A stretch of 64,000 bases of DNA from a virus, in IMG/VR virus record IMGVR_UViG_3300029787_005266, positions 27,043 to 91,042 of that record. The stretch is one strand, 5' to 3'. Below the pieces are notes generated by a model. It was not told the DNA's origin. It saw only the letters and a list, made by a program, of their open reading frames with translations, and ran no database searches. A program made the position numbers and the translations under genes. Shown in pieces: positions 15,945 to 35,964 of the stretch (the first letter of the stretch is position 1; each line of letters begins with the position of its first letter).

Positions 15945-15973
15945 TTGATTTTTTGGCATAAACTTATTATAAT
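15945..15973 (+). promoter_or_regulatory. Sigma70-type promoter TTGATT-17-TATAAT heading the modification island
   Basis: -35 at 15945-15950, -10 at 15968-15973, ATG at 15979. Confidence 0.7.
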
Positions 15974-15978
15974 AAGTT

Positions 15979-16260
15979 ATGAGTTCGAAACAAAGATTTG
16001 CACTAAAACGTGATCTCTTATTGTTACAGCAACGAGTCAAATCACAAGAGGTGTTTGTGTATAATGGTTGCATGTTCAGGGCCGATGCCGTGACAGTGGC
16101 CTATGCACAGACAGTGAAAGATGATGCAGTTATCATAGATATAAATCAAACACCTTGCAGAATTGAAAACGCAGACGATTTTCGACGTACTCTACAACTT
16201 AAACACAACGAAATATTAAATGAGTATGAAAAAGAGTATCAAGAAATCACATTACGATAA
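15979..16260 (+). CDS. Hypothetical protein
   Basis: 93-aa ORF immediately after promoter. Confidence 0.55.
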   Translation: MSSKQRFALKRDLLLLQQRVKSQEVFVYNGCMFRADAVTVAYAQTVKDDAVIIDINQTPCRIENADDFRRTLQLKHNEILNEYEKEYQEITLR

Positions 16261-17008
16261 AGGCATATTGCTTTTCAGTTTTGACACACCTGAATTACAG
16301 TATTCAAAAATCACTAAAAAATGTATTGAACTGTTAAGAATATATTGTCCTGAGATTCCTGTAGTTGTTGTAGGCGACCAAATTATTAAATCTGCAGATT
16401 GGACTATACTGGCAGATGATCCTACTGCTAATGTGCATAATATCCGCGGTCCAAAACCATGGAAAAACTTAGCACGAGTTGATGCCTATGAACTATCACC
16501 TTTTGATACTACGATAATAATTGATTCTGATTATCTTGTGTATGACAACAATTTACTGAAGTTGTTTGAATCAGATCAACCAGTGTTGGCACACACCACG
16601 TGGTGTGATATAAATTATGCAGAAGTATCCAGACTACCAATGGGCAATTCTATGTTGGACATGATGTGGGCAACTGTGTTGATGTTCAAGAAAGACGACG
16701 CTGTAAGAGAGATGTTTGACACCTGGAGAAACATTTTGAAAAACTATCAATATTATGCACAGATGTTTGGACTGAACAAACGCATGATTAGAAATGACCA
16801 TGCGTTCACTATTGCTATGGCAAACATGCAAGACCATGGCTCTACAGAACACACAGTGATACCATGGGATATTATCACAGCCAATCAAAATTTTGAAGTA
16901 AAAAAGATCACAAATAAAAATATTGTGTTGCAAGATCAACATGGCGAAATAATAGTTGATCAAAGTGTACACATCTTAAACAAAGAAAGTTTATTAAATG
17001 CTATCTGA
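16220..17008 (+). CDS. GT-A fold glycosyltransferase-like protein
   Basis: AYELSPFDTTIIIDSDY (DxD), WATV..F, RNDHAF. Confidence 0.6.
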   Translation: MSMKKSIKKSHYDKGILLFSFDTPELQYSKITKKCIELLRIYCPEIPVVVVGDQIIKSADWTILADDPTANVHNIRGPKPWKNLARVDAYELSPFDTTIIIDSDYLVYDNNLLKLFESDQPVLAHTTWCDINYAEVSRLPMGNSMLDMMWATVLMFKKDDAVREMFDTWRNILKNYQYYAQMFGLNKRMIRNDHAFTIAMANMQDHGSTEHTVIPWDIITANQNFEVKKITNKNIVLQDQHGEIIVDQSVHILNKESLLNAI

Positions 17009-17825
17009 CAAAGAACAGTATGGATATCTTACATATGCTTTGAATACTGGTGACACAGATTATGAAAGTATTGCACATCTTTGGGCATTAAGTGTTAAAC
17101 TTACACACAAACATTGTCCATCACTTGCTGTAATTGTAAAAGACAAACAAAAATGTAGAAGTAGTTTACACACTGTATTTGATCATGTAATAGAATTACC
17201 CATCAGAGATGTTGTTAATAATATGCAGTATGAGTGCGATGTGTTAAAGTTATCACCTTTCAAAGAAACAGTCAAATTTGAAGCAGACATGCTGTGTACA
17301 TCCGACATAATGATATGGCAAAAATATTTTAGATTACGTGACTTGTGTTTTACAGGACATGTTTGCAATTTCAAACAACAACAAGCAGATGACTCGAAGT
17401 ATAGGAGATACATTAAAACAAACCTGTTACCTAATGTATATCAAGGATTATATTATGTAAGGACAACAAGACAGACCGACAAGTTTATGAAAACAGCTAA
17501 CAGTGTATTCAATAATTGGGATAAAGAAATTAAAAATTTGAGAATGTTTGACAAATTTGAACCATCTACAGATTTTGCATTCAGCATAGCATTAGACAAA
17601 CTAAACATGAATAATTGTGTCAGTAATGATGTGTATCCGTCTTTTATACATGTAAAACAAGGGATTGTAAAACAAGCAGATTGGGATCAGATAACATGGA
17701 GTTTATTAAAAAATAAGTATTTTACAGTGTGCGGTACACAATTATCATTGCCAATACATTATTTTGACAAGTCATTCTGTACGGAAAAACTAATAAGGGA
17801 GTATGAATATGCCGTTGGAATATAG
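16998..17825 (+). CDS. GT-A fold glycosyltransferase-like protein (paralogue, ExD)
   Basis: LSPFKETVKFEADM, STDFAFSIA, FIHVK. Confidence 0.55.
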   Translation: MLSDKEQYGYLTYALNTGDTDYESIAHLWALSVKLTHKHCPSLAVIVKDKQKCRSSLHTVFDHVIELPIRDVVNNMQYECDVLKLSPFKETVKFEADMLCTSDIMIWQKYFRLRDLCFTGHVCNFKQQQADDSKYRRYIKTNLLPNVYQGLYYVRTTRQTDKFMKTANSVFNNWDKEIKNLRMFDKFEPSTDFAFSIALDKLNMNNCVSNDVYPSFIHVKQGIVKQADWDQITWSLLKNKYFTVCGTQLSLPIHYFDKSFCTEKLIREYEYAVGI

Positions 17826-18147
17826 AATATATTATCAAGACGAAGAAATTACCACAGTGACAACACAGACTGCAGAAGGTGAATACATTGTGGTTGATTC
17901 AAAAAAATGGCTAGATGTACAAAATAGTCCATCAGCATGGAAAGTAATTGATAAAACACTGGAGAAAAAGATTATAGATCGTACAAATGGAAAAAAGAAA
18001 AAGAAATTTACAGTGAAAGGTCATGACACATTTCCAGGATGGGTAATAAAAAAATATCAACTGTATACAGCCATAGAATATGCTATTGAGGAACCTGAGT
18101 GGTTTGACCCCGAAAAACATGCAGTAGTAGGATATGAAGATGATTGA
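17803..18147 (+). CDS. Hypothetical protein
   Basis: Overlap-coupled ORF within operon. Confidence 0.5.
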   Translation: MNMPLEYRIYYQDEEITTVTTQTAEGEYIVVDSKKWLDVQNSPSAWKVIDKTLEKKIIDRTNGKKKKKFTVKGHDTFPGWVIKKYQLYTAIEYAIEEPEWFDPEKHAVVGYEDD

Positions 18148-19018
18148 TGTAGCAGACTTGGATGTAATTTTTTTAAGTTATAACGAACCAAACAAAGAAC
18201 ACAACTGGGCAGATTTACGTTCTAAATGTCCGTGGGCAAAACGTGTGGACGGTGTAGAAGGTTCTGATGCGGCACACAAAGCGGCAGGAGAAGCATCAAG
18301 CACAGAACGTTTTATTTTGATAGACGGAGACAACATTGTAAATCCTGCCCTATTTGATCAACAATTTGATATAGATAGTATGCCATCAGACGCAGTAATA
18401 CGTTATCAAGGATTGAATATTGTGAATGGATTAAAATATGGCAATGGCGGCGTGTCTTCTTGGACTAGGAAGTTTGTCAAAGAAATGAAGACACATGAAA
18501 ACTCACAAGGCGATGATGAAAGTCTAATTGAATTTTGTTTTCACAATCAATATGTTGCAATTCAAGAATGCTATTCTACTACTGTTATGAACAGCACTGA
18601 CAAACAAGCATGGCAGGCTGGATTCAGAGAAGGTGTCAAAATGAGTCTTGATGAAGGCAAACGGGTATCACCGGCAAATTTTGTGAAAAACATATGGCGC
18701 GGAAATTTGAGAAATTTGTGTATTTGGATGAGTGTTGGTGCTGATGTAAAGAATGGTCTATGGGCAATATATGGTGCTTGCCAAGGTTGTCTTTGGACCA
18801 CACTGCAACAGGATTGGGATCATTCTATTACACGTGACTTTACAGAATTAGACAATATATGGGATCAAACTATTGATCAAGGTGACGAAAGCCGAAAAAC
18901 AGCTATTAAGGAGATGCACAATGACTTGAACTATCATTTAGGATTAAATGTTGCACTACTAGATGATGAACAATCCAAGTTTGTTAAATTTATAAATTCA
19001 TGTCCAGCGACTACTTAA
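18134..19018 (+). CDS. GT2-like glycosyltransferase
   Basis: DVIFLSYNEP, RVDGVEG...AHKAA, FILIDGDN (DxD), NGLKYGNGG, AWQAGFREGVK. Confidence 0.65.
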   Translation: MKMIDVADLDVIFLSYNEPNKEHNWADLRSKCPWAKRVDGVEGSDAAHKAAGEASSTERFILIDGDNIVNPALFDQQFDIDSMPSDAVIRYQGLNIVNGLKYGNGGVSSWTRKFVKEMKTHENSQGDDESLIEFCFHNQYVAIQECYSTTVMNSTDKQAWQAGFREGVKMSLDEGKRVSPANFVKNIWRGNLRNLCIWMSVGADVKNGLWAIYGACQGCLWTTLQQDWDHSITRDFTELDNIWDQTIDQGDESRKTAIKEMHNDLNYHLGLNVALLDDEQSKFVKFINSCPATT

Positions 19019-20367
19019 CAGATGCCAACAAGGCAAAACTAAAACTAGATAAGATTTCTGATTCTATGTGTCTGGCAAAATGGATGCAGACTTCTTTACA
19101 CCTTACAAATGGCATGACAAACTCTTGCTATCATCCACCATTACACAAAATAGATGTAGAGCAAATCAAAACAAATCCTTCTAAATTACACAACACTGAT
19201 GAAAAGAAACAGCAACGTGATCTAATGATAAATGGAAAAAGACCAGAAGGTTGTTCATACTGTTGGAAGTTAGAAGATGACAAACAGATGAGTGATCGAC
19301 ATTATAGGTCAGGAGAACCATGGGCAATGGATCATTATCAAAATATTTTAGATAATCCACAAGCAGATATTGTGCCTACATATGTTGAGGTCGATTTCAG
19401 TAATGCATGTAACTTCAAATGTTCATATTGTTCGCCACAATTTTCAACTGCGTGGGCAAAAGAAACAGAAGAACATGGATCATGGCCAACATCAACACCA
19501 CATAATGATCCAGCACATTTTAAAGGTGACAGAAAAGTTATGCCACAAAATGATAATCCATATGTTGAAGCATTTTGGAAATGGTGGCCAGAACTGTATC
19601 CACAATTACGTCATTTTAGAATGACAGGTGGTGAACCTATGATGGATAAAAATACATTTAGGGTGTTTGATTATGTAATAGAAAATCCAAAAAAAGATTT
19701 GCATTTAAACGTAACTTCTAATTTTTGTCCACCTACTCCTGCACTAGGTGACAGATACTTTAACATGGTAAAAACAATGTGTGATGGAGCGATGATAGAA
19801 CACTTCATGCAATTTGTATCTTTAGATGCTTGGGGAGAAAGAGCAGAGTATATAAGAAACGGAATGGATTTTGGCACTGTATGGTCAAACGTACACAGAT
19901 ACTTGCATGATATTAAAGGTTACAATTCTATTACATTTATTATTACAATGAACAATCTTAGTGTGTCTAGTTTAAAAGAATTATTAGAAAACATTTTAAG
20001 ATTAAGAGAACAATATTCTACAACATATCAACGGGTGTGGTTCGACACACCTATTTTAAGGTTTCCCATATGGCAACATATAGGATTGTTGGACGAATCC
20101 TTTAACCATTATTTCGAGGAGGCTATAGAGTTTATGGAGCAACACCGACATGACTCTAACATGGCAGGGTTTAGAGATTTTGAAATTGCTAAACTTACTC
20201 GGACATACCGCATAATGCAACAAGGACTGGACAACAAGGAACAACACCTAGCAAACTTTTGGCGTTTCTTTCGAACTCATGACTCGAGACGTGAAACAGA
20301 TTTGTTAGGTGTTTTTCCAGAATACAAAGATTGGTTTAAACAATGTCAACAAGCAACGAAGATTTAA
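19000..20367 (+). CDS. Radical SAM enzyme with N-terminal twitch/SPASM-like domain (1 of 5)
   Basis: CNFKCSYC, GGEP; N-terminal CLAKW...SCYH...CSYC. Confidence 0.85.
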   Translation: MSSDYLTDANKAKLKLDKISDSMCLAKWMQTSLHLTNGMTNSCYHPPLHKIDVEQIKTNPSKLHNTDEKKQQRDLMINGKRPEGCSYCWKLEDDKQMSDRHYRSGEPWAMDHYQNILDNPQADIVPTYVEVDFSNACNFKCSYCSPQFSTAWAKETEEHGSWPTSTPHNDPAHFKGDRKVMPQNDNPYVEAFWKWWPELYPQLRHFRMTGGEPMMDKNTFRVFDYVIENPKKDLHLNVTSNFCPPTPALGDRYFNMVKTMCDGAMIEHFMQFVSLDAWGERAEYIRNGMDFGTVWSNVHRYLHDIKGYNSITFIITMNNLSVSSLKELLENILRLREQYSTTYQRVWFDTPILRFPIWQHIGLLDESFNHYFEEAIEFMEQHRHDSNMAGFRDFEIAKLTRTYRIMQQGLDNKEQHLANFWRFFRTHDSRRETDLLGVFPEYKDWFKQCQQATKI

Positions 20368-21689
20368 AATATAGAAGAGAGGTCCTAGACCCAAAATCTT
20401 CATCCTTCTGTGGAGCCAAATGGTATAATGCCACTATATGGTTAGGTTCTGGCATGACCACAAGTTGCCATCATCCTTTGCCACACAAAATTGATTTAGA
20501 AGCAGTAAAAAATAATCCCAAAGCTCTGCATAACACACCCGAGAAAAAATTACAACGTGAGCAGATGCAGGCAGGTGAAAGACCTGCAGGTTGTGAATAT
20601 TGTTGGAAAATAGAAGACCTAGGTGATAACAGTATATCTGACAGAGTATACAAATCAAACATATATTCAAATGAAGATTTAGAGACAGCATTTAACACAC
20701 CTTGTCAAAAAGATGTAGATTTACAAACATTAGAAATATCATTTGATAGGACTTGCAATTTTGCTTGTTCTTATTGTAATCCTGCTTTTTCTACTACGTG
20801 GGTAAAAGATATCAAACAACACGGAGCATATGAAAAACTACAATCAGACGGCAGAAATCATTTTACTCATGTACATGAATCATCACAACTGTATGGTTAT
20901 CAAGAATACAATCCCTACATAGAAGCATTTTGGAAGTGGTGGGATTCAGACTTACATCGTACATTGAAAGAATTAAGAGTCACAGGTGGTGAACCTTTGA
21001 TGAGTGCAGACATGTGGAAACTGTTTGATTGGTTCAAGGATAATCATGGCAAGTCAGATACTAGGCTAGCAATTAATTCGAATCTGTGTCCTAAAGACAA
21101 ATTAATGGATCAGTTGATTGAAAAGTCACACTATGTCAAAAACTTCGATGTCTATACTTCAGCTGAAGCAATGGGAACCAGAGCAGAGTATATTAGAGAT
21201 GGCATGGACTTTGCATTATGGAAAAAGAATTGTCTGCGTCTTATAAATGAAGGCAGTTTGTCAGGATTGCATGTAATGATGACTGTGAATGCATTGTGTT
21301 TAGATTCATTGCCAGAAATGATTGATCTCTTAGTAAGTTGGAAACGCAAGTATGGTCCTGATTACCCGAATTTTACTCTCAATATATTACGTTTTCCGTC
21401 ATTTCAGTCAGCAGTAGTATTGCCAACAAGTATCAAAAAAGAATGCATTGAGCAATTAACAAAGCAAACACATGATTATTACAATGATTTGCATGGTATG
21501 GAACTTAATCAAATGCTGAGATTAATAGAATACCTTAAAGAAGTCGAAAGTCCTCATGAGGGAGCGGACAATGTGGATAAATTACAGAGTGACTTCAAGA
21601 ACTTTTATTCACAGTATGATAAACGCAGAGGCAAAGACTTTGCAAATACATTTGGTAACAAAATGGTAACATGGTATGAGCAGTTATAA
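20343..21689 (+). CDS. Radical SAM enzyme with N-terminal twitch-like domain (2 of 5)
   Basis: CNFACSYC, GGEP; CGAKW...SCHH...CEYC. Confidence 0.85.
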   Translation: MSTSNEDLKYRREVLDPKSSSFCGAKWYNATIWLGSGMTTSCHHPLPHKIDLEAVKNNPKALHNTPEKKLQREQMQAGERPAGCEYCWKIEDLGDNSISDRVYKSNIYSNEDLETAFNTPCQKDVDLQTLEISFDRTCNFACSYCNPAFSTTWVKDIKQHGAYEKLQSDGRNHFTHVHESSQLYGYQEYNPYIEAFWKWWDSDLHRTLKELRVTGGEPLMSADMWKLFDWFKDNHGKSDTRLAINSNLCPKDKLMDQLIEKSHYVKNFDVYTSAEAMGTRAEYIRDGMDFALWKKNCLRLINEGSLSGLHVMMTVNALCLDSLPEMIDLLVSWKRKYGPDYPNFTLNILRFPSFQSAVVLPTSIKKECIEQLTKQTHDYYNDLHGMELNQMLRLIEYLKEVESPHEGADNVDKLQSDFKNFYSQYDKRRGKDFANTFGNKMVTWYEQL

Positions 21690-22956
21690 AGACAAAATGC
21701 CCACACAAGTGGATGCTGACAAACTGACAGATAAGCAAAAGTTTTTGTTGAACGATTCTAAATATTTTTGCACACTGCCTTGGACACATTTACACGCTTA
21801 TCCGAATGGAGCCGCATATCCTTGTTGTCTTGCAAAACATGAATTTCCCATTGGGTCTATGAAAGAAAACACTATGAAAGAATTATGGAATAGTGCAGAC
21901 ATGAAAGACATCAGGAAAAACATGTTGAATGAAAAACCATCCAAACAATGTACCAAGTGTTATGAGCAAGAAGAACATGGATGGACGTCAATGCGAGAAT
22001 CGTCTAATATACGTTATGGGCACCACATTGACAAAGTTCCACTTACAAAAGATGATGGAACTTATGATGATGTGAACATGATATATTGGGATATACGTTT
22101 TTCCAATCTGTGCAATTTGTCATGCAGATCCTGTGGCACATGGTTTTCTTCAAACTGGTATGATGACCAAGTAGCATTGTGGGGAGATCCTGGACACCCG
22201 AAAGTTACATATGCTGGCACCACTAAAATGGATGCCTATGAACAACTTATTGAATATTTGCCAATGGTCGAACAGGTATATTTTGCAGGTGGTGAACCTC
22301 TTATTATGGAAGAACATTATAAAATTTTACAAGCTCTTATAGATACAGGCAAAGCTGATAGTGTGCGGTTACTTTACAATACAAATTTAACCAGACTGTC
22401 GTACAAAAAAACAAATGTATTAGATATTTGGCCTGAATTTAAAGATGTGGCAGTAGGGGCATCTTTAGATGCTATGGGGCCGAGAGCAGAACTTATGCGT
22501 AATGGAACAAAATGGGCCGATGTAGAACGTAACAGAGAAGATATGTTGAAAAAATGTCCTGATGTTGATTTTTACATATCGCCAACTGTAGGCATTTTTA
22601 ACTATTCACACATAATTGACTTTCATAATGATTGGGTGCAAAAAGGATTCATCAGAGAAGGTGATATAAATGTAAACATGATACAAGATCCATTACATTA
22701 TAGAATAGATGTAATTACTCCAAAAATGAAAAAAGAAGTTGAACCAAAGTACAAAGAACACATAGAAAAGATTAGGCCAAAAGATCATTTGAATCGAGCC
22801 ACAGGTGGATTTGAATCTGCATTGAATATGATGATGGCCGATGATAGGAGTGATCTTATACCTACTTTCAAAAGAATCACATCACAGTTGGATAGACATC
22901 GTGGACAGGAAACACATGAAATATTTCCTGAGTTGTCGGAGATACTAATTGACTAA
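21676..22956 (+). CDS. Radical SAM enzyme with N-terminal twitch-like domain (3 of 5)
   Basis: CNLSCRSC, GGEP; CTLPW...PCC...CTKC. Confidence 0.85.
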   Translation: MSSYKDKMPTQVDADKLTDKQKFLLNDSKYFCTLPWTHLHAYPNGAAYPCCLAKHEFPIGSMKENTMKELWNSADMKDIRKNMLNEKPSKQCTKCYEQEEHGWTSMRESSNIRYGHHIDKVPLTKDDGTYDDVNMIYWDIRFSNLCNLSCRSCGTWFSSNWYDDQVALWGDPGHPKVTYAGTTKMDAYEQLIEYLPMVEQVYFAGGEPLIMEEHYKILQALIDTGKADSVRLLYNTNLTRLSYKKTNVLDIWPEFKDVAVGASLDAMGPRAELMRNGTKWADVERNREDMLKKCPDVDFYISPTVGIFNYSHIIDFHNDWVQKGFIREGDINVNMIQDPLHYRIDVITPKMKKEVEPKYKEHIEKIRPKDHLNRATGGFESALNMMMADDRSDLIPTFKRITSQLDRHRGQETHEIFPELSEILID

Positions 22957-26214: not shown

Positions 26215-26217
26215 TCA

Positions 26218-28292: not shown

Positions 28293-29731
28293 TTTGGGGA
28301 GCATCAGCACACTTTCATGATGCAGGCTTGAGTGTGGTCAAAGATGGCGAAGTTGTATTTGGTGCTCATGCAGAAAGATATTCTGGAGTAAAACATGACA
28401 AGTTGCTAAATCAAGACATTATCAACGAAGCACTTACTTGGGGTAGACCTGATGTAGTTGCATGGTACGAAAAACCATGGAAGAAGAATATTAGAAAGTT
28501 ATGGACTGGCGAATGGCGGTATTCAAAATTTGATACACACCCAAGCAAGTATCTTAAACAGTTTGGCATTGATGCTCCAGTTAAATTGTATGATCATCAT
28601 TACACTCATGCAACAGCAGGATATTTTACATCACCATTTAAAGAAGCAGTCATTGTGGTAGCAGATGCTATTGGAGAGTTTGAATGTATTACTATATGGG
28701 AGGCAAAAGGGAATAAACTAAAAAGACTGGCGTCATGGTCTTATCCTCACTCACTAGGTTTGTTATATTCAGCATTTACTCAAAGATGCGGATTGAAGCC
28801 TATGGATGAAGAGTATATCACAATGGGAATGGCAGGTTGGGGTGAACCTAAGTACGCACATCAAATCAAACAAGAATTTGTAAATCCGACACACTTTCAT
28901 TTGAAGAAAAATGTACACAAAGGAATAGGCAACTGGATGCCAGATGCACAAGTGGAGGATATTGCGGCTTCAATACAACAAGTCACAGAAGAGTGCATTG
29001 ATCAATTGATGTGTACTGCCTACACATGGACAAGAATGAACAATGTGGTTTTTATGGGTGGTGTTGCTCTCAACTGTGTGGCCAACCATTTGTTGCATGA
29101 TTACTTTGATAATGTGTGGATAATGCCCAATCCAGGAGATTGTGGATCTTCACTAGGAGCCGCACTTGCACACCGAGGATCACACGTTAAATGGCCGGGG
29201 CCGTACATTGGCACCAATATTGATAATCCATACCCTGTAGAGGCGTTATTGCACGAATTAGACACCAAAAAGATAGTGGGAGTAGCGTCTGGTCGTGCTG
29301 AATTTGGGCCACGTGCTTTAGGACACAGATCATTGTTAGCAGACCCTAGAGGCACTGAAATTAAAGATCAAGTGAACGCAATAAAACGCAGACAAAAGTT
29401 CAGACCATTTGCTCCTGCAATACTGGAAGAACATGTCCAACACAACTTTAAAATGTGTACCAGTCATTCACCTCATATGCAGTTTGTGGGCGAGTGTTTA
29501 AAACCAGATTTGTATCCAGCAATCATTCATGTGGATGGCACCAGCAGAGTACAAACAGTGGGCAAAAATGATTCAACAGGATTCAGAGCATTGTTAGAAG
29601 CTTGGTATGCTAAAACAGGTTGTCCTATGTTGTTGAATACGTCACTAAACATCAGAGGTGAGCCAATGGTAAACACAAGAGAAGATGCTGATCGCTTCGA
29701 AGAAAAATATGGTGTAAAGGTTTGCTCGTGA
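28283..29731 (+). CDS. O-carbamoyltransferase, NodU/CmcH/TobZ family
   Basis: HDAG, ERYS..KHD, HH..HA, GGVALNC, EFGPRALGHRS.LADP, KRRQ.FRPFAP, HVDGTSRVQTV, LLNTSLN; start at ATG 28283 after GGAG. Confidence 0.9.
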   Translation: MGVVWGASAHFHDAGLSVVKDGEVVFGAHAERYSGVKHDKLLNQDIINEALTWGRPDVVAWYEKPWKKNIRKLWTGEWRYSKFDTHPSKYLKQFGIDAPVKLYDHHYTHATAGYFTSPFKEAVIVVADAIGEFECITIWEAKGNKLKRLASWSYPHSLGLLYSAFTQRCGLKPMDEEYITMGMAGWGEPKYAHQIKQEFVNPTHFHLKKNVHKGIGNWMPDAQVEDIAASIQQVTEECIDQLMCTAYTWTRMNNVVFMGGVALNCVANHLLHDYFDNVWIMPNPGDCGSSLGAALAHRGSHVKWPGPYIGTNIDNPYPVEALLHELDTKKIVGVASGRAEFGPRALGHRSLLADPRGTEIKDQVNAIKRRQKFRPFAPAILEEHVQHNFKMCTSHSPHMQFVGECLKPDLYPAIIHVDGTSRVQTVGKNDSTGFRALLEAWYAKTGCPMLLNTSLNIRGEPMVNTREDADRFEEKYGVKVCS

Positions 29732-29732
29732 C

Positions 29733-32700
29733 ATGTATGACAGATATACATTCGAAGGACAAATTACGCAACATAAATCCAACACAGAATGGTATTGGCT
29801 CACAGACAGTCGAGTAGATTATTCTAATTTTAATTTTGATTATGATCCTCCCGATTGGGAAAAACAATTTATACATGCTTTTGGAGATCAACACTCTGTG
29901 CATGGCGGAACCTATCTGGTGCACATCAATCATAATAATGAAACAGACTTTAAATTTGTACCGCAAACAGTAACAAGAAATCAAGCATTTGATGTTTTTA
30001 CTGATACACATGAAATAGACTTTCAATCGGAAACATCAACTGAATGGTATTGGGTGACCAGTCCATTTAATGATTACGTCAATTTTGATTTTACATGGCA
30101 TCCTGCATTATGGGAGAAAAATTTTGTTCATGTTTTTCCTGATCAACACTGCACACATGGCGGCACTTACATTATCCATAAGGATTGTGACTTGGCAAAC
30201 ATTGAATACAAGTATCACAACTTTATCATCCAACGCACTGGATACAATCACCTTCATTGGAAAACTGATGACAGAAATTCATATGCTGGATTCGATTTTA
30301 CTTGGCATCCAGAACCATGGGAAGAAAAATATGTGCATTGTTTCGGCGATCAACATGCTGATGATTCACGCACATATTATGTTGCAGATGAAGTCGACTT
30401 TGCCAATGCAAGGAAATATTATCATCCTAAGACTGTAACATGTCACAAACCATTCCAAAGATTTCATGGTGTAAAAATACAGAACTGTATTACTGAAGAT
30501 GAATACTACTGGATAACCAGCGATGGCAATGATTACTCTAATTTTGATTTTACTTGGCATCCAGATGAATGGCAAAGCAAGTACGTTCATTGCTTCGGAG
30601 ATCAATACTCAGATGATGCTGGAACATACCTCGTGCATCGTGACACTGACATAAACAATGCCAGAACACAGTATCATCCAAATGCCATTACCCGTACAGA
30701 ATCATTTGAACAGTTTCATGTCAAAGGACTGCAAAAATGTGACACCAAACAAGATTGGTATTGGATTGTGGATGATGCAAATGATTACCAAAATTTTGAT
30801 TTCAAATGGCATCCAGAATCATGGAAGGGCAGATATGTCCACTGCTTCGGAGATCAACATTCTGACGATGCAAACACCTATCTAGTACCAAAAGACTGTG
30901 ATTTGGATAATGTCAAAGTAGAGTATCATAATCATGCTTTTCAACGTGTTAAACCATGGAATAGATTCAAAATAAGCGGTCTTAAGACGGTGTATTCGGA
31001 CACGGACTGGTACTGGATCATCTCCGATGAAAATGACTATACAGACTTCGATTTTACATGGCATCCAGAGAGTTGGCAAACCAAATATGTGCATTGTTTC
31101 GGTGATCAACATGCAGATGATTCCAACACATATCTGGTTCACAAAAGTCATGATATTACCAATATCAGATGGCAATATCACCCTGACACTGTTGTCAGAA
31201 CTGCTAAATTTGATATCATAGAATATGATGGAGAATTAAATCATCATGCAGAATCTGATACTGAATGGTATTGGTTAACAAGCAAAGAAAATGATTACTC
31301 TGATTTTGATTTCACATGGCATCCTGAAACAGCACAACGCAAATTTGTTCACGTGTTTGGAGATCAATTTTCAGAAACTTCAGGCACATATTTGATCAAT
31401 AAAGAATTGGATCCAAACGATTGTAGACAACAGTTCCATGAGAACAAAGTTGTACGCAAAACCACAGGCACAATACACAGATGTTCCAACATGATGCCTG
31501 ATGACGAAGGCACAAGATTGTTTTCAAACTTGTTTAATTTCATAAAACGAATAGCAAACAACAGTGATGAAAGAAACATTTGGATTACTGCTTCTATTGT
31601 AGATGATGCTAATTTTGATTACAAATGGCATCCTGCTGACTGGGAATCGAAGTATATTCATGTGTTCCACAATGAACAATCTGAATACGGATATGTAATG
31701 TGGGTGCCACTTGCTGAGTTCAAAAAGCAAATGGACACCTTGCAAAAATTAGAATGGTTCGATACAATAAAATATCATGCAACTGATTTGACCTATCATG
31801 ATCTTCCAGTGAACGAATATTCATTAGGCAAAGGCGCCGCCGAAAAGATACAACAACACACATTTACTCATCACTATGAATGGTTTGTGGAAGACAGTGT
31901 GCTCCAACAAAACTTGCCAAACTATTATCCTGCAAGATGGGACGAAGTCAACATCAATTGTTTTGGTACACATAAGCAAATGTTGTTAGTGCCACGTGAA
32001 GCAAAATCATTTGTAGTCGATCAAGTGTATGATTACCCTGCCATTGATACTCACCAACATAATATATCAACGCAACCTAATGACATAATTTTTATATCAT
32101 ATGATGAACCTATGGCTGATGAAAAATATGAACAACTCATAAAAAAATATCCAAGGGCCAAAAGGGTGCATGGGATAAAAGGTCAGACACAGGCTTATCA
32201 CAAAGCGGCAGAAACATCGAACACTGATTATTTTTTTGCTGTGTTCCCTAAGTTAGATATTCATCCTGACTTTGATTTTGAATATCAAGTTGATAGATTG
32301 CACAATCCCTGTCATTGGATTTTCAACAGTTTCAATCCAGTGAATGGTTTAAAATATGGTCATGAAGGTATAATTCTTTACAATAAAAATCTAGTGCTGG
32401 AAACGACAGATCCTGGAATAGACTTCACAATGTCCAAGGCACATGATTTTGAAGACATTATGAGTACCACAATGCTGTTCAATCAAGATCCATGGTTAGC
32501 ATGGAGAACTGCTTTCCGTGAAGTGGTTAAACTGAATTACTTTAATAGTCAAAAACCTGACAAGATTACACAGGAACGTTTACAGATTTGGTGTACAGTG
32601 GCGGAAGGTGAAAACAGCGAGTGGGTATTGCAAGGAGCGAATGACGGTCAAAAGTTTTTCGAAAGTGGTCAAGATCTAAAATTAAGTTATGATTTTGAAT

Positions 32701-32735
32701 GGTTGAAGAATCAGTTTAATAAGGTTTCCATTTAA
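29733..32735 (+). CDS. 1000-aa protein with ~8-9 W/F/H-rich repeats and a C-terminal GT2-like domain
   Basis: Repeat WYW..S..NDY..FDFTWHP..W..KYVHCFGDQ; C-terminal DIIFISYDEP...RVHGIKG...NGLKYGHEG...AWRTAFREVVK is homologous to 18134. Confidence 0.7.
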   Translation: MYDRYTFEGQITQHKSNTEWYWLTDSRVDYSNFNFDYDPPDWEKQFIHAFGDQHSVHGGTYLVHINHNNETDFKFVPQTVTRNQAFDVFTDTHEIDFQSETSTEWYWVTSPFNDYVNFDFTWHPALWEKNFVHVFPDQHCTHGGTYIIHKDCDLANIEYKYHNFIIQRTGYNHLHWKTDDRNSYAGFDFTWHPEPWEEKYVHCFGDQHADDSRTYYVADEVDFANARKYYHPKTVTCHKPFQRFHGVKIQNCITEDEYYWITSDGNDYSNFDFTWHPDEWQSKYVHCFGDQYSDDAGTYLVHRDTDINNARTQYHPNAITRTESFEQFHVKGLQKCDTKQDWYWIVDDANDYQNFDFKWHPESWKGRYVHCFGDQHSDDANTYLVPKDCDLDNVKVEYHNHAFQRVKPWNRFKISGLKTVYSDTDWYWIISDENDYTDFDFTWHPESWQTKYVHCFGDQHADDSNTYLVHKSHDITNIRWQYHPDTVVRTAKFDIIEYDGELNHHAESDTEWYWLTSKENDYSDFDFTWHPETAQRKFVHVFGDQFSETSGTYLINKELDPNDCRQQFHENKVVRKTTGTIHRCSNMMPDDEGTRLFSNLFNFIKRIANNSDERNIWITASIVDDANFDYKWHPADWESKYIHVFHNEQSEYGYVMWVPLAEFKKQMDTLQKLEWFDTIKYHATDLTYHDLPVNEYSLGKGAAEKIQQHTFTHHYEWFVEDSVLQQNLPNYYPARWDEVNINCFGTHKQMLLVPREAKSFVVDQVYDYPAIDTHQHNISTQPNDIIFISYDEPMADEKYEQLIKKYPRAKRVHGIKGQTQAYHKAAETSNTDYFFAVFPKLDIHPDFDFEYQVDRLHNPCHWIFNSFNPVNGLKYGHEGIILYNKNLVLETTDPGIDFTMSKAHDFEDIMSTTMLFNQDPWLAWRTAFREVVKLNYFNSQKPDKITQERLQIWCTVAEGENSEWVLQGANDGQKFFESGQDLKLSYDFEWLKNQFNKVSI
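29787..31720 (+). repeat. Eight ~75-100 aa intragenic tandem repeats
   Basis: Recurrent TTTGATTTTACWTGGCATCC-like and TTYGGNGATCAA DNA cores at ~240 bp spacing. Confidence 0.85.
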
Positions 32736-33921
32736 GTTCTAGTTTTTCTAACCAACTATTTCCTGCATGTTTGGCTTCATCAACTAATAATGTTATAGTG
32801 TGATCAAACGCATCCAAAAATCCTACGTCAAATGGTCTTGGTTTAATCCCAGGGCCTGACAGATGTTTTTTCACAATATCTTCAATCGAATCTTTTTTGA
32901 CGTTTCCGATGATATATCTGTCACTGCCTGGTCTGTCAAGAAATCCACTTTCATGATACACATACTGATTACCTAGACTATCCACAGCAGACGCCACTTG
33001 TGGAAAGCCATACCCGTCCATTTGTTCATAGTTTGCCATTTTGATTGGTCCGTCAATCAATCCATGTCTTACAGGATGTAATGCATAACCATAATCAATG
33101 TGTAGATGTTTCATGTCATCGTCGTTTGCACATTCTTCTTCAACTTCTAGAAATATATTGTGTAATGTGCTTCTCTCTACATTAGAAATATAATTGTTAC
33201 TCTGGCTAAAATCTTCCCGTAGTGTTATGAATGATATTTTGTAGTCACTGACTGCATTTATTTGTTTGATCATACGGAAAACTTTTTTTAGATCATTGCT
33301 GTGTCCGGGCAATATTATCCAGTTGACTCCTAGTCGTAAAGGTTTGTCTGACTCTGACATACGTTTACAAAAATTCTGTAAGTTTTTTACAACCATTTTA
33401 TGTGACTTATTATTTTTTGTGACTGAATAATAACTTTGATCATCGTATCCATAGAGACTTACACGCATCACTTCTAGGTCTAAGATACCAATCTGTTTAT
33501 CTACAAAGTTTTCTGTTAATGCGTAACCGTTGGTGTACAGTTGCATTTTAAATCCTTTTGAATTTCCGTAACGAATAATCTCCCCAATGTGTGGGTTTGT
33601 CAAAGGTTCTAATCCTCCACTTATTCTGAATCGGTCTTGCCAATTTTTGTCTGACTTAGGATCCTGATCAATAATGCTTTTGAAAACATCCAAACTGTCA
33701 TCAGCAATAGATCTTTCATATTTTGCATCATAGTTTCTTCCGCAAAAAGTACAAAAGAATTGACAGTTAAGGCCTGGATATAATCCTATTCGGTTAGGAT
33801 ATTTGTAAGTGTTGTTTACTGCATGTGACAGAGAACCATTGGCTAACAACGGTAATATTGTGTTGTTCCAGTATTTGTTTGCTTGATCTTCGCCTTTGGT
33901 ATGTTTATACCCTAATCTCAT
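32716..33921 (-). CDS. desII: DesII-like radical SAM NDP-4-amino-4,6-dideoxyhexose deaminase (ammonia-lyase)
   Basis: Colinear with DesII motifs as I recall them: YWxNTxLPL, GLYPGxxCxFxCxFC, SGGLEPLTNP, YTNxxALTE, RxSLYG, REDF/YS, LHIDYGYAL, PQVA..VD.LG, RYIxG, DxFD. Confidence 0.85.
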   Translation of the reverse strand: MRLGYKHTKGEDQANKYWNNTILPLLANGSLSHAVNNTYKYPNRIGLYPGLNCQFFCTFCGRNYDAKYERSIADDSLDVFKSIIDQDPKSDKNWQDRFRISGGLEPLTNPHIGEIIRYGNSKGFKMQLYTNGYALTENFVDKQIGILDLEVMRVSLYGYDDQSYYSVTKNNKSHKMVVKNLQNFCKRMSESDKPLRLGVNWIILPGHSNDLKKVFRMIKQINAVSDYKISFITLREDFSQSNNYISNVERSTLHNIFLEVEEECANDDDMKHLHIDYGYALHPVRHGLIDGPIKMANYEQMDGYGFPQVASAVDSLGNQYVYHESGFLDRPGSDRYIIGNVKKDSIEDIVKKHLSGPGIKPRPFDVGFLDAFDHTITLLVDEAKHAGNSWLEKLELKWKPY

Positions 33922-35050
33922 TGTGATAGAATTCCTTAACCTTTTGTATTATATAATCCTGTTGATCTGTGTCTAGGTGTTGACTTGAAGGCAAACTCAC
34001 AATGTGTTTGCTAACTTGCTCGGTGATAGGTAAAGGATGCCGTACGCCATTATGGTAAGGTTCAAACACATGACAAGGATGTCTGAAGTGTATGTTTGTG
34101 TAAATTTCTTGGTCTTTAAGCCACTGCATTAATTCGTCACGTCTTTCTACTTGGATATTATAAACGTAGAAAGTCATCTTGCTCCATGGCACTTCAGGCA
34201 ATGTTTTTATTATGCCTTTCACATCTTTGAATGCATCATTATATTTTCTGCAAATTTCTTGTTTCTTATTCATCCATTTATCTACATAAGGAAGTTTTGC
34301 ACACAACACAGCCGCTTGAATATTATCTATCCTTGTGTTGTAACCAATTTTTTCATATTCGAATCTAACACGTCTTCCATGATCTCTATACATTTTGCAT
34401 TCTTCGATTAAATCTTTCCTCCCCATAACACAGCCAGCATCACCTATGGCCCCTAAATTTTTCACTGGATTAAAACTTACACAAGCAAGATCCACTCCTT
34501 TGACAGCACCTAATTTGGTTCCTAAATAATCTGAACCAAATGCTTGAGCGGCATCTTCGATCAAATACAAATTGTGTTTGTTTTTTATTTCGATAATTTT
34601 GTTTATGTCTGGTGATTGTCCATATATGTCTACAAACAGAATTGCTTTTGTTTTGTCTGTTATAGCATGTTCAATTTTGTCTATGTCTATGTGATAGTAA
34701 TCATCGATGTCAACAAACACAGGAGATGCACCAACTACTGCAATAGATTCTGGAGTACTAACGAATGTATGACTAGGAACTATGACTTCATCGCCTGGTC
34801 CTATACCGCAGGCCTTCAAAGCAATAATCAATGCCATTGTACCACTTCCACATGACGCAACTGATTCACAACCTATGTAGTCCATAATCATTTGTTCTAA
34901 TGTGTCTCGATATCCTGTGGTAGTTCCAAACACTGCATTGCCAGTAATGAAATTGTTTGTGTCTAATACTTCTTGTATTGCTTGATCAATATCGTGTTTG
35001 CATTCTTGATATTGTGATTGTAAATCTGTAAATTCTATAGGTAACTTCAT
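33905..35050 (-). CDS. DegT/DnrJ/EryC1/StrS PLP sugar aminotransferase (DesI-like by context)
   Basis: SGTMAL, GPGDEVIVP, IEDAAQAFG, SFNPVKNLG (PLP Lys), GDAG, SLP. Confidence 0.9.
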   Translation of the reverse strand: MKLPIEFTDLQSQYQECKHDIDQAIQEVLDTNNFITGNAVFGTTTGYRDTLEQMIMDYIGCESVASCGSGTMALIIALKACGIGPGDEVIVPSHTFVSTPESIAVVGASPVFVDIDDYYHIDIDKIEHAITDKTKAILFVDIYGQSPDINKIIEIKNKHNLYLIEDAAQAFGSDYLGTKLGAVKGVDLACVSFNPVKNLGAIGDAGCVMGRKDLIEECKMYRDHGRRVRFEYEKIGYNTRIDNIQAAVLCAKLPYVDKWMNKKQEICRKYNDAFKDVKGIIKTLPEVPWSKMTFYVYNIQVERRDELMQWLKDQEIYTNIHFRHPCHVFEPYHNGVRHPLPITEQVSKHIVSLPSSQHLDTDQQDYIIQKVKEFYHNEIRV

Positions 35051-35964
35051 AATATTGTATCGTGATTAATGTCTTCTAATGCTTGTTTCAAATCAAACTT
35101 ACTGGAATATCCAATTGATTTAAGTTTTGTTATATTTAATGCTCCGCGATTGGGAAAATATTTCTCTCTGTTTACAGGTAAAACTTTGCTCTTACTATTG
35201 TAAAAATTAACCACAGACTCTGCAATTTCTTTTATGGTGAATGTTTGTTCACTGCTGATATTGAATGTTTCATTTTTTACAGTATCCTTTAATGTTAAAG
35301 TTACTGCTTCTATCAGGTCTTTCACATATGTTATATCTGTTGTAGAATCTTGTGCATAAAATATGTCTTGATCTTGTAATGCTGATTTAATAAATTTAGG
35401 CATAAGTCTGTCTGCAATATCGTAATCCCCAAACACACAAATTGGTCTAAAAATAACATAATCAACAGTATCTCTTGTAATTGCTTTTAACAGTTTTTCT
35501 TGTGTAAGTTTTAAACTACCATACAAATTTATAGGTGAACACAAACTGTTTTCATCTGCATCATCTTGATAATTTCCATACACATTTGAACTGCTGAACA
35601 ATATGTATTTTTTTGGTTTGTACGAAAAAGTGTTTACCAGTCCGGTGATCATTGTCTCTGATGCCACAGTCGGATATTGTTCAACTAAACTTACTCTTGG
35701 ATACGATGCAAGATTTATTACAACATCTGGTTGGAAGTCTGTATACAATGAATCAATTTTACTTCTTTCAAGTATTGATCCATTAATAGTGTTGACGTTA
35801 TTCCAATTTTTGATTCTTGAACTGATAATTTTTTGTTTGATAGTTTCGTTCTCAATACCAAATAAAGTAAAATTATCGTAGACGCAAATTTGGTGATCCT
35901 CTTGCAAATGGTTTACTAGGTGGTGCCCGATAAATCCAGCACCACCAAATATAAGGATCTTCAT
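35047..35964 (-). CDS. Extended SDR NAD-dependent sugar epimerase/dehydratase
   Basis: GGAGFIG, SSSNVYG, YGSLK (YxxxK). Confidence 0.85.
   Translation of the reverse strand: MKILIFGGAGFIGHHLVNHLQEDHQICVYDNFTLFGIENETIKQKIISSRIKNWNNVNTINGSILERSKIDSLYTDFQPDVVINLASYPRVSLVEQYPTVASETMITGLVNTFSYKPKKYILFSSSNVYGNYQDDADENSLCSPINLYGSLKLTQEKLLKAITRDTVDYVIFRPICVFGDYDIADRLMPKFIKSALQDQDIFYAQDSTTDITYVKDLIEAVTLTLKDTVKNETFNISSEQTFTIKEIAESVVNFYNSKSKVLPVNREKYFPNRGALNITKLKSIGYSSKFDLKQALEDINHDTIL

What the first reader, a model, noticed from the sequence alone, without database searches (positions are those of the whole stretch)
15945..35964. ~20 kb glycan-tailoring island abutting the tail-fibre genes: candidate virion glycosylation system
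Seen: one promoter, then a chain of overlapping or closely spaced genes. These are 3 GT-A-like, 5 radical SAM, 1 SGNH-like, a PFIY peptide, 2 GT10-like, a carbamoyltransferase and a repeat GT. They converge head-on (20-nt 3' overlap) with the NDP-sugar cassette. Established: some phages glycosylate virion proteins, and NodU-type enzymes carbamoylate sugars. Inference: the island builds an elaborate carbamoylated/deoxy glycan on fibres or capsid, or remodels the host surface. It appears separate from the DNA-modification locus at 44-54 kb, which has its own GT.
Basis: partly seen in the sequence, partly recalled or inferred. Interest (0 to 1): 0.85.

Follow-up and report, generated by a model that had tools for sequence, protein, structure and literature searches.

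The report
Jumbo-phage radical-SAM sugar-tailoring operon
An uncultured marine giant phage carries, right behind its tail-fibre genes, a tightly packed 20-kb block of soluble sugar-transferring enzymes, five radical SAM enzymes from a family I found no characterised member of, and a carbamoyl-adding enzyme with a tiny partner peptide. It most likely builds a heavily edited sugar chain, but the product and what it is attached to remain unknown.

Summary
The anatomy is real. One sigma70-like promoter (15945-15973) drives 16 overlapping or abutting + strand genes (15979-32735). They meet a minus-strand SDR/DegT/DesII-like cassette in a 20-nt 3' overlap.

Shown here:
- Five N-terminal-twitch radical SAM enzymes (NF033640), a NodU/CmcH-type carbamoyltransferase and a conserved 34-aa ...DPFIYH peptide.
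- A GT-A-fold enzyme (294 aa) and a GT-B-fold pair (345/346 aa).
- A 1000-aa protein with eight ~84-aa repeats and a C-terminal GT-A domain.

Not shown:
- The GT-A label for the 262/275-aa pair and the SGNH label for the 226-aa protein.
- Membership of GT10.

All products lack membrane segments. Gene order, fibre genes included, is kept in 11 metagenomic relatives and partly in Ralstonia phage RsoM2USA.

- The fibre genes use a T4-late-like TAAATA motif, while the island uses an early-type promoter.
- The GT-B model's best structural match is the T4 DNA beta-glucosyltransferase.
- The carbamoyltransferase-peptide pair also occurs without any radical SAM or GT.

Best reading: cytoplasmic assembly of an edited glycan on a soluble acceptor. 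Odds: virion proteins about 0.4, DNA 0.2, host or soluble product 0.2. This scan has already found the same kind of operon on other DNA at least eight times.

The parts
13387..15926 (+). Two fibre-module genes (515 aa and 330 aa) directly upstream of the island. TATAAATA lies at 13369-13376.
   Evidence: PHROG tail-fibre and virion structural matches. Homologs precede the island in L003-L007, L015, L018, L019, L022 and RsoM2USA.
15945..15973 (+). Sigma70-like promoter TTGATT-17-TATAAT. Its -10 box ends 5 nt before the ATG at 15979.
   Evidence: It sits in the only intergenic gap of the + strand operon.
15979..16260 (+). 93-aa protein, unknown function
   Evidence: No Pfam, PHROG or NCBIfam match. 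Conserved at 30-94% in 8 relatives.
16220..17008 (+). 262-aa protein with a DSD motif (TTIIIDSDYLV). Putative nucleotide-sugar transferase; fold not tested.
   Evidence: Paralog of the 275-aa protein (hhalign 98.4%, E 6e-15). D102 and D104 are invariant. No Pfam or PDB sequence match.
16998..17825 (+). 275-aa paralog of the 262-aa protein
   Evidence: No family match.
17803..18147 (+). 114-aa protein, unknown function
   Evidence: Only a weak hit to phrog_8017. Conserved at 30-89% in L003-L007.
18134..19018 (+). 294-aa GT-A-fold glycosyltransferase with a DGD motif at residues 64-66
   Evidence: AF2 pLDDT 85. All top Foldseek hits are GT-A, led by PBCV-1 A64R at E 1e-5. VIA gives Z 10.2 to B4GALNT1 and 10.0 to STIV A197. 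More than 7900 relatives, mostly from metagenomes, none with a Pfam domain.
19000..20367 (+). Radical SAM 1, N-terminal twitch type (subtype A)
   Evidence: NF033640, E 1.5e-95. Cys motifs.
20343..21689 (+). Radical SAM 2, N-terminal twitch type (subtype A)
   Evidence: NF033640, 311 bits. 49.6% identical to a RsoM2USA gene.
21676..22956 (+). Radical SAM 3, N-terminal twitch type (subtype B)
   Evidence: NF033640, E 1.8e-121. A profile built from it matches the BtrN twitch domain at E 1e-5.
22949..24109 (+). Radical SAM 4, N-terminal twitch type (subtype B); TTG start, or ATG at 22976
   Evidence: NF033640, 345 bits.
24106..25434 (+). Radical SAM 5, N-terminal twitch type (subtype B)
   Evidence: NF033640, E 4.9e-92.
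25421..26101 (+). 226-aa protein with GCSF...GNND motifs. The SGNH-like label is untested.
   Evidence: No Pfam, PHROG or NCBIfam match. Conserved in L003, L005, L006, L015 and L019.
26110..26214 (+). 34-aa basic peptide ending in DPFIYH, the partner of the carbamoyltransferase
   Evidence: 12 invariant positions in 8 phages. A DPFIY-ending ORF lies within 1.5 kb of the carbamoyltransferase start in 55 of 80 viral loci, often 0-12 nt before it. An unannotated copy exists in RsoM2USA.
26218..27255 (+). 345-aa GT-B-fold glycosyltransferase
   Evidence: AF2 pLDDT 85. Foldseek and VIA hits are all GT-B: T4 BGT Z 10.3, GtfB-type Z 9.3, FUT9 Z 9.2. Many uncharacterised phage relatives in BFVD.
27252..28292 (+). 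346-aa paralog of the GT-B enzyme (the ORF could also start at TTG 27189)
   Evidence: 33-35% identical to the 345-aa protein.
28283..29731 (+). NodU/CmcH-type carbamoyltransferase (the ORF could also start at GTG 28223)
   Evidence: Pfam PF02543 and PF16861. More than 580 viral contigs encode relatives. 28-30% identical to cyanophage 'Nol-like carbamoyltransferase'.
29733..32735 (+). 1000-aa acidic protein: eight ~84-aa repeats (residues ~15-700) plus a C-terminal GT-A-like domain (784-1000) that has FPK in place of DxD
   Evidence: Repeats. The C-terminus matches the 294-aa family at E 1e-18 to 1e-30. Net charge is -68. Repeat number varies among relatives.
32716..33921 (-). DesII-like radical SAM enzyme (a 4-amino-4,6-dideoxyhexose ammonia-lyase type)
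   Evidence: TIGR04426, E 5.8e-96, 322 bits, below the 450 cut-off. Missing from relatives L005, L006 and L007.
33905..35050 (-). DegT/DnrJ/EryC1-type sugar aminotransferase
   Evidence: Pfam E 1.9e-96. Best NCBIfam models are PseC, LegC and dTDP-4-amino-4,6-dideoxygalactose transaminase, all below their cut-offs.
35047..35964 (-). Extended SDR acting on a nucleotide sugar (dehydratase, epimerase or reductase; not resolved)
   Evidence: Pfam Epimerase, E 1e-31. dTDP-glucose 4,6-dehydratase model scores 99 bits against a cut-off of 365; GalE model scores 80 bits.
35971..36843 (-). 195-aa and 94-aa proteins of unknown function, upstream of the sugar cassette on the same strand with no gap holding a promoter
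   Evidence: phrog_15894, function unknown. The 195-aa gene abuts the SDR in L007 as well.

Best explanation
The block is a phage-encoded, entirely soluble pathway that assembles and chemically edits an oligosaccharide inside the infected cell.

Inferred steps:
1. The minus-strand cassette (SDR, DegT aminotransferase, DesII-like radical SAM) turns a host NDP-4-keto-6-deoxyhexose into amino- and deoxy-sugar donors.
2. The GT-A enzyme (294 aa), the two GT-B enzymes, probably the 262/275-aa pair, and the GT-A domain of the repeat protein add sugars one after another directly to a soluble acceptor.
3. The five anciently diverged N-twitch radical SAM enzymes each perform a different radical edit on the growing glycan.
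4. The carbamoyltransferase works together with its 34-aa partner peptide.

Shown: the enzyme classes, folds, operon structure, conservation and lack of membrane segments.

Inferred: the order of steps, the sugar chemistry, and the acceptor. I judge the acceptor most likely to be virion proteins (the fibres or the 4308-aa protein encoded just upstream).
For: - Enzyme classes and folds.
- All five radical SAMs keep the CX3CX2C and the 4-Cys auxiliary site. Each has its own ortholog at 47-98% identity in relatives, while the paralogs are only 20-36% alike. That points to five distinct jobs.
- In L021/L022 the GT-B genes alternate with radical SAM genes. One bacterial relative is a GT2-radical SAM fusion.
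- No product has a hydrophobic 19-mer above 1.5 on the Kyte-Doolittle scale, so there is no lipid-linked machinery.
- The block follows the fibre genes in 9 of 9 metagenomic relatives with enough flank, and in RsoM2USA it follows MS-verified virion genes (PMC8504454).
- The GTs are acidic (pI 4.9-5.9), which fits poorly with binding DNA.
- DS[ST] tripeptides are 3-4 times over-represented in the 4308-aa protein and two fibres, with 0 of 300 shuffles reaching the count. This could be an acceptor motif.
- The 294-aa model's best Foldseek match is the PBCV-1 capsid-glycan GT.
Against: - No glycan or acceptor has been observed.
- The island has a sigma70-type promoter like the queE and AAA genes. 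Every fibre gene preceded by a gap has TAAATA, the most avoided AT hexamer of the contig at 23 seen against 98 expected. The island is therefore not co-promoted with virion genes.
- Synteny among kin is not independent evidence.
- Bacterial N-twitch radical SAM genes rarely sit beside GTs (2 GT2 and 2 GT1 among 131 neighbours). They sit beside further paralogs, PhyH dioxygenases and TPR proteins.
- The carbamoyltransferase-peptide pair often stands alone.
- The 515-aa fibre next to the island has no DS[ST].
Confidence: 0.4

Rival explanations
1. DNA hypermodification. The GTs put one or several sugars on a hydroxylated base of the phage DNA, and the radical SAM and carbamoyl enzymes edit that sugar to block host nucleases.
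For: - The GT-B model's best match is the T4 DNA beta-glucosyltransferase (Z 10.3). The T4 alpha-glucosyltransferase and the phage HY126 DNA arabinosyltransferase (Z 8.5 each) are also in the top ten.
- Poly-glycosylated bases exist: tri-arabinosyl-5hoC in RB69 and DLP3 (PMC13326640).
- The promoter is early-type, as at the 7-deazaguanine genes 8 kb away.
- RsoM2USA has a second, divergent ThyA homolog.
Against: - Fucosyltransferases and protein O-GTs score within about 1 Z of the DNA GTs.
- The GTs and the repeat protein are acidic; the repeat protein has net charge -68.
- No ThyA-type hydroxylase or hydroxymethylase was found in the 91-kb contig or in relatives G002 and G003, though all are fragments.
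- In RsoM2USA the divergent ThyA lies more than 100 kb from both clusters.
- Six GT-type domains plus five radical SAMs exceed any known DNA glycan.
Confidence: 0.2
2. A host-directed or soluble product. The enzymes edit a host glycoconjugate precursor or make a free sugar-based metabolite (aminoglycoside-like) during early infection.
For: - The promoter is early-type.
- The enzyme set recalls aminoglycoside and macrolide-sugar pathways: a BtrN-like twitch domain, DesII-like and DegT enzymes, and a TobZ/NodU-class carbamoyltransferase.
- Bacteria pair N-twitch radical SAMs with carbamoyltransferases without any phage context, in L030, L034, L046 and L076.
- T4-like cyanophages and pelagiphages carry carbamoyltransferases among variable genes.
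Against: - There is no transporter, flippase, polymerase, priming GT or membrane protein.
- The position behind the fibre genes is strictly conserved.
- The GT families are found almost only in viruses.
Confidence: 0.2
3. A peptide-centred pathway. The 34-aa DPFIY peptide is the scaffold or carrier on which the carbamoyl group, and in this phage the glycan, is built. Precedents are HypE for HypF and the LysW carrier protein.
For: - The C-terminus DPFIY is invariant, and translation is coupled to the carbamoyltransferase (gap 0-12 nt in many loci).
- The motif also ends longer proteins of 139-366 aa in L132, L144 and L145.
- HypF-type enzymes belong to the same superfamily (weak HypF hit) and act on a protein C-terminus (my own knowledge).
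Against: - The peptide follows the carbamoyltransferase, not the radical SAMs or GTs. In 34 of the 80 viral loci no N-twitch radical SAM was detected, and many of these carry the peptide.
- It is absent from all bacterial radical SAM loci.
- It could simply be a small subunit.
Confidence: 0.1

Closest known systems
Chlorovirus PBCV-1 capsid glycosylation (A64R and other virus-encoded GTs)
   Same: Both use virus-encoded, soluble GTs that build a complex glycan in the cytoplasm without host lipid-linked machinery. The 294-aa model's best Foldseek hit is A64R (2p6w, E 1e-5).
   Different: Similarity is at fold level only (TM 0.32-0.43, 13-15% identity). PBCV-1 has no radical SAM array, carbamoyltransferase or partner peptide. 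The acceptor here is unknown.
Mycobacteriophage virion glycosylation (Freeman et al. 2023, as cited in PMC12619734)
   Same: In both, phage GT genes lie beside structural genes and would decorate virion proteins.
   Different: No homology was tested. Here the operon has its own early-type promoter, and no glycan has been shown.
Phage DNA glycosyltransferases (T4 beta- and alpha-GT; RB69, DLP3 and HY126 arabinosyl-5hoC system, PMC13326640)
   Same: All are minimal GT-B enzymes of phages. T4 BGT is the top structural match of the 345-aa model (Z 10.3, rmsd 6.1, 251 aligned residues). The promoter is early-type.
   Different: Identity is 10%. The proteins are acidic. No linked base hydroxylase was found. 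Far more enzymes are present than any known DNA glycan needs.
DesI/DesII steps of desosamine biosynthesis
   Same: A DegT-type aminotransferase sits next to a DesII-like radical SAM enzyme with an intact CX3CX2C.
   Different: Both score below the equivalog cut-offs (322 against 450; DesI model 146 against 650). The DesII-like protein lacks about 80 N-terminal residues of the model. The cassette is optional among relatives.
NCBIfam NF033640 N_Twi_rSAM; BtrN as the structural reference for twitch domains
   Same: All five proteins pass the family cut-off. The N-terminal domain matches the BtrN twitch at E 1e-5.
   Different: The auxiliary domain is N-terminal rather than C-terminal. My paper searches turned up no study of this family.
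Cyanophage and pelagiphage 'Nol-like carbamoyltransferase' (S-SSM7, P-SSM2, HTVC008M)
   Same: They share the same Pfam domains at 28-31% identity.
   Different: The closer marine phage clade (49-71% identity, more than 580 contigs) carries the DPFIY peptide. Whether the cyanophage genes do was not checked.

Membership tests
NCBIfam NF033640 (N_Twi_rSAM) | Score over the curated cut-off (170 bits) across the full length | tested here: met
   Five genes score 309-406 bits and cover profile positions 1-398.
NCBIfam NF033640 (N_Twi_rSAM) | Radical SAM CX3CX2C plus an N-terminal Cys-rich twitch domain | tested here: met
   C146, C150 and C153, and C32, C51, C92 and C95, are invariant in all five. 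The N-terminus matches the BtrN twitch and Pfam SPASM.
NodU/CmcH carbamoyltransferases (Pfam PF02543 + PF16861) | Both domains score over the gathering cut-offs | tested here: met
   135.5 and 173.3 bits against cut-offs of 24 and 27.
NodU equivalog (NF041651) | Score over 1000 bits | tested here: not met
   124 bits. The protein belongs to the same superfamily but is not NodU itself.
DesII (TIGR04426) | Score over the equivalog cut-off of 450 | tested here: not met
   322 bits, covering profile positions 82-448 of 468. It is DesII-like only.
DesII (TIGR04426) | Adjacent C4 sugar aminotransferase and an intact CX3CX2C | tested here: met
   The DegT gene overlaps it. The CQFFCTFC motif is present.
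GT-A glycosyltransferases (294 aa) | GT-A Rossmann-like fold with a DxD after strand 4 | tested here: met
   pLDDT 85. The top 30 Foldseek hits are GT-A. VIA Z reaches 10.2. D64-G-D66 is nearly invariant.
GT2 (Pfam PF00535) | Profile match | tested here: not met
   No Pfam hit at E 0.01. The atlas gives only a 0.87 lead.
GT10 fucosyltransferases (Pfam PF00852) | Profile match to the GT10 catalytic domain | tested here: not met
   No hit at E 0.01, and none at E 10 in the six-frame search.
GT10 fucosyltransferases | Structural similarity standing above other GT-B families | tested here: inconclusive
   FUT9 Z 9.2, FUT11 Z 8.7, FucT13 Z 8.1 and 5zoi Z 7.9. These tie with a GtfB-type enzyme at 9.3 and fall below T4 BGT at 10.3.
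Phage DNA glycosyltransferase systems | Linked enzyme that makes a hydroxylated or hydroxymethylated pyrimidine (ThyA homolog) | tested here: inconclusive
   None was found in the 91-kb contig, G002 or G003, but these are 11-24% fragments. RsoM2USA has a divergent ThyA homolog far from the clusters.
Virion glycosylation systems | Glycan found on virion proteins | not testable with these tools
   This needs glycoproteomics of virions.
Virion glycosylation systems | Same promoter class as the virion genes | tested here: not met
   The fibre genes have TAAATA 9-15 nt before the ATG. The island has TTGATT-17-TATAAT and no TAAATA at any gene start. Timing is inferred from the T4 analogy.
Und-P-linked surface polysaccharide loci (O-antigen, capsule) | Membrane priming GT, flippase, polymerase | tested here: not met
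   The highest 19-residue Kyte-Doolittle mean among island products is 1.48, so no transmembrane segment is predicted.
Radical SAM RiPP systems | Precursor peptide that co-occurs with the maturase | tested here: not met
   The peptide tracks the carbamoyltransferase. It is absent from the bacterial radical SAM loci.
SGNH hydrolases (226 aa) | Profile match or SGNH fold | tested here: inconclusive
   No Pfam hit. Motifs GCSF and GNND were seen by eye.

The most novel reading that the evidence does not exclude
The invariant C-terminus ...RKRDPFIY[K/R/H] of the 34-aa peptide may be a carrier or acceptor site, loaded at its tyrosine by the carbamoyltransferase in the manner of HypF acting on HypE. 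In phages with the full operon, the GTs and N-twitch radical SAM enzymes would then build a glycosylated, radical-edited product on it. That would be a carrier-peptide pathway in viruses that I did not find described, spread over more than 580 viral contigs.
Probability: 0.12. Interest if true: 0.85.

Novelty: new variant of a known kind. Interest (0 to 1): 0.62.

Why it matters
Virus-encoded glycosylation is known from a few systems: chlorovirus capsids, some mycobacteriophages, and phage DNA. None of these uses radical SAM chemistry.

- This operon puts 5 enzymes of an uncharacterised radical SAM family in a glycan context. Relatives carry up to 8, and earlier notes of this scan report up to 12. 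The family has more than 10,000 clusters at 50% identity.
- It is abundant in marine and freshwater phages.
- Finding the product would assign a reaction to that family.
- It would also show whether large phages coat their fibres or their DNA with edited sugars.
- It would explain the widespread carbamoyltransferase-peptide pair of marine phages.

Tried and rejected
1. 'The repeats are amplified GT fragments': hhalign of the 8 repeat units against the 294-aa family gives probability 0.5%. Rejected at profile level.
2. The 262-aa family against the 294-aa family: no relation.
3. PDB sequence searches found nothing for the 1000-aa protein, the radical SAM as a single sequence, and profiles of the 294, 345 and 262 families.
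4. PHROGs has no family for any unknown island protein.
5. Megablast against isolated phages found no match.
6. Bacterial context of the radical SAM family shows no polysaccharide-locus signature.
7. Neighbours of stand-alone carbamoyltransferase-peptide pairs are a mixed set of T4-like genes with no common partner.
8. The 'late' label therefore rests on the motif alone.
9. The claimed GT of the 44-54 kb locus: the 350-aa gene shows no link to the GT-B family or to the PDB.
10. Paper searches for this operon type found nothing specific.

- Relatives cannot be drawn for a virus record.
- The 5-paralog alignment was too divergent for a genome scan.
- The 34-aa peptide is too short for the search for homologous proteins.

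Full report
**Context**

The window is the right-hand 64 kb of a 91-kb IMG/VR virus record that CheckV rates 24% complete, so the genome is roughly 380 kb. Its family-B DNA polymerase is 43-48% identical to those of jumbo phages: Sinorhizobium Phosso, Agrobacterium Atu_ph07 and the E. coli 121Q-like phages. Positions 1-15926 encode virion proteins and fibres. Positions 43-54 kb hold 7-deazaguanine-type genes: GTP cyclohydrolase I and a QueE-like radical SAM. GC content is uniform at 0.34-0.41, so the block is not a compositional island.

**Anatomy**

Between 15926 and 32735 the + strand has a single gap, 15927-15978. It holds TTGATT-17-TATAAT. Sixteen genes follow with overlaps of 4-41 nt or gaps of 8 nt or less. 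The last one ends at 32735, 20 nt inside the 3' end of the minus-strand gene 32716-33921. No intrinsic terminator separates the two units.

**What the genes are**

- **Radical SAM array.** Five consecutive genes (19000-25434) belong to NCBIfam NF033640, 'twitch domain-containing radical SAM protein', at 309-406 bits against a cut-off of 170. All keep the CX3CX2C and four N-terminal cysteines. A family profile matches the twitch domain of BtrN at E 1e-5. Paralogs are 20-36% identical, but each has its own ortholog at 47-98% identity in related phages. The duplications are therefore old and each copy is kept.
- **Carbamoyltransferase.** 28283-29731 is a NodU/CmcH-type enzyme.
- **GT-A enzyme.** The 294-aa protein has no Pfam match. 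It folds with pLDDT 85 into a GT-A glycosyltransferase. All top Foldseek hits are GT-A, led by PBCV-1 A64R at E 1e-5, and VIA Z reaches 10.2. It carries a nearly invariant DGD.
- **GT-B pair.** The 345-aa protein and its paralog fold as GT-B at pLDDT 85.
- **Repeat protein.** The 1000-aa protein has eight ~84-aa repeats with the core WYW..DY.NFDF.WHP..W..YVH.FGDQ. Its C-terminal domain is homologous to the 294-aa GT-A. It is very acidic, with net charge -68.
- **Sugar cassette.** The minus-strand cassette is an extended SDR, a DegT aminotransferase and a DesII-like radical SAM. All three score below the equivalog cut-offs.

**Labels that I could not confirm**

- The 262 and 275-aa proteins are paralogs with a conserved DxD-like motif. 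Neither Pfam, PDB profiles nor the GT8 model recognise them.
- The 226-aa 'SGNH-like' protein has no profile match.
- The Pfam GT10 model finds nothing in the contig, even at E 10. Fucosyltransferases appear among the structural neighbours (FUT9 Z 9.2), but they tie with other GT-B families and rank below the T4 DNA beta-glucosyltransferase at Z 10.3.
- The idea that the repeats are amplified GT fragments fails a profile comparison.

**The peptide**

The real gene is 26110-26214 (34 aa, pI 10.2), not the 71-aa ORF. Twelve positions, including the C-terminal DPFIY, are invariant in eight phages.

A scan with the carbamoyltransferase found more than 580 viral contigs. Of the 80 fetched loci:
- 55 have a DPFIY-ending ORF within 1.5 kb of the carbamoyltransferase start, often 0-12 nt before it.
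- A few have the motif at the end of proteins of 139-366 aa.
- 34 show no N-twitch radical SAM, and 53 show no 294-like GT. The neighbours of such stand-alone pairs are ordinary T4-like genes with no common theme.

An unannotated copy lies near the RsoM2USA carbamoyltransferase. No bacterial radical SAM locus has it.

The peptide is therefore the partner of the carbamoyltransferase, not of the radical SAMs. The carbamoyltransferase need not act on the island's glycan.

**Conservation**

The following all keep the order fibre (515 aa) - 330 aa - 93 - 262 - 275 - (114) - 294 - radical SAMs - ... - peptide - carbamoyltransferase - repeat protein - SDR:
- five IMG/VR contigs at 65-86% identity;
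- six phage contigs binned into bacterial MAGs at 42-51% identity.

What varies among them:
- the number of radical SAMs (4-8);
- the number of GT-B paralogs (1-5, interleaved with radical SAM genes in L021 and L022);
- the number of repeats;
- DegT and DesII, which are often absent;
- extras such as a B12-radical SAM, a 2OG oxygenase and an FNR-like reductase.

Ralstonia phage RsoM2USA has a mini-cluster (262-like, 275-like, 294-like, radical SAM, 294-like) just after virion genes that were identified by mass spectrometry (PMC8504454).

**The radical SAM family outside phages**

The family has 10,255 clusters at 50% identity. Some members are fused to TPR, Sel1 or GT2 domains. In 28 bacterial loci the neighbours are mostly further paralogs (22 of 131), PhyH dioxygenases (7) and TPR proteins (5). 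GTs are rare. A carbamoyltransferase is adjacent in four loci. This neither proves nor refutes a sugar substrate.

**Expression signals**

Each fibre-module gene preceded by a gap (starts at 7074, 7753, 10246, 12900, 13387) has TAAATA 9-15 nt before its ATG. That hexamer is the most avoided AT-only hexamer of the contig, seen 23 times against 98 expected. This fits a T4-type late promoter core, an analogy drawn from my own knowledge.

The island instead starts with a sigma70-type promoter, as do the queE and AAA genes. No island gene start has TAAATA. The block is therefore a separate unit, probably expressed earlier. That fits DNA or host-directed functions as well as early provisioning of a glycosylation machine.

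**Acceptor**

- No island product has a membrane segment. A lipid-linked surface-polysaccharide route is unlikely, and a soluble acceptor is implied.
- For virion proteins: the conserved position, the acidic enzymes, the PBCV-1-like GT-A, and a 3-4-fold excess of DS[ST] in the 4308-aa protein and two fibres. That motif was chosen after seeing the data, is partly explained by repeats, and is absent from the adjacent 515-aa fibre.
- For DNA: the structural neighbours of the GT-B enzyme, the promoter class, and the recent proof that phages poly-glycosylate bases (PMC13326640).

My odds are: virion proteins 0.4, DNA 0.2, host or soluble product 0.2, peptide-centred 0.1.

**Comparison and novelty**

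The block works like virus-encoded cytoplasmic glycosylation (PBCV-1, mycobacteriophages) or phage DNA glycosylation. It is not a member of any characterised system:
- The GT families have no Pfam or PHROG model.
- I found no published study of the radical SAM family.
- The carbamoyltransferase-peptide pair is undescribed in the papers I could search.

Earlier notes of this scan describe the same operon type in at least eight other phage genomes, with the same open question. This instance is therefore not unique. The points I add here, on this instance:
- the contrast in promoter class;
- the DNA-GT structural neighbours;
- the independence of the carbamoyltransferase-peptide module;
- the failure of the 'amplified GT fragment' idea.

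Noticed in passing
window 7059, 7741, 10234, 12886, 13371 (+); 7014, 40805, 42007, 62529 (-): TAAATA (often ATAAATA or TATAAATA) lies 9-15 nt before the start codons of virion genes. It is the most under-represented AT-only hexamer of the contig, seen 23 times against 98 expected. This is probably the late-promoter core of this phage.
   Followed up: partly
window 1-12390 (4308-aa protein, fibres 4772-7012, 7753-9351, 10246-12390): The DS[ST] tripeptide is 3-4 times over-represented relative to residue shuffles in the giant virion protein (20 against 4.8) and two fibres (5 against 1.2; 6 against 1.4). It is not enriched in the 515-aa fibre, the 1161-aa structural protein or any enzyme.
   Followed up: partly
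L001 14216-14338 (Ralstonia phage RsoM2USA, record about 125.9 kb): There is an unannotated small ORF ending ...RKQDPFIYK between RsoM2USA_201 and _200, one gene before the carbamoyltransferase RsoM2USA_199. The GenBank record misses this conserved peptide gene.
   Followed up: partly
L014 15653-16372; L021 14966-15688; L061 364-1086 and 4883-5605; L005 14474-15199: A ~240-aa ORF recurs beside the peptide and carbamoyltransferase in relatives. In L014, the only copy scanned, it carries FAD_binding_6 and NAD_binding_1 domains (FNR-like), which could make it an electron supplier for the radical SAM enzymes. This window has no homolog in the island.
   Followed up: partly
L014 4438-5937 and 1428-2195: A relative's island also carries a B12-binding radical SAM (class B methylase type) and a 2OG-Fe(II) oxygenase. 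The tailoring set is therefore modular.
   Followed up: no
W01 (RsoM2USA) 7739-8398 and 334307-335206: There are two thymidylate-synthase homologs, one canonical (243 bits) and one divergent (85 bits). The divergent one could be a pyrimidine hydroxylase or hydroxymethylase, which hints at modified DNA in that phage.
   Followed up: no
window 36900-39165 (-): A DUF2201 metallopeptidase/VWA protein and a MoxR-type AAA ATPase form a pair behind their own sigma70-like promoter, just beyond the sugar cassette. Their function here is unknown.
   Followed up: no
L014-L022, L061 (genome contigs): Contigs carrying this phage operon are binned into bacterial MAGs labelled Legionellales, Betaproteobacteria, Verrucomicrobia, Rickettsiales, Haliscomenobacter and Gammaproteobacteria. 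They are most likely phage contigs mis-binned into those MAGs.
   Followed up: partly
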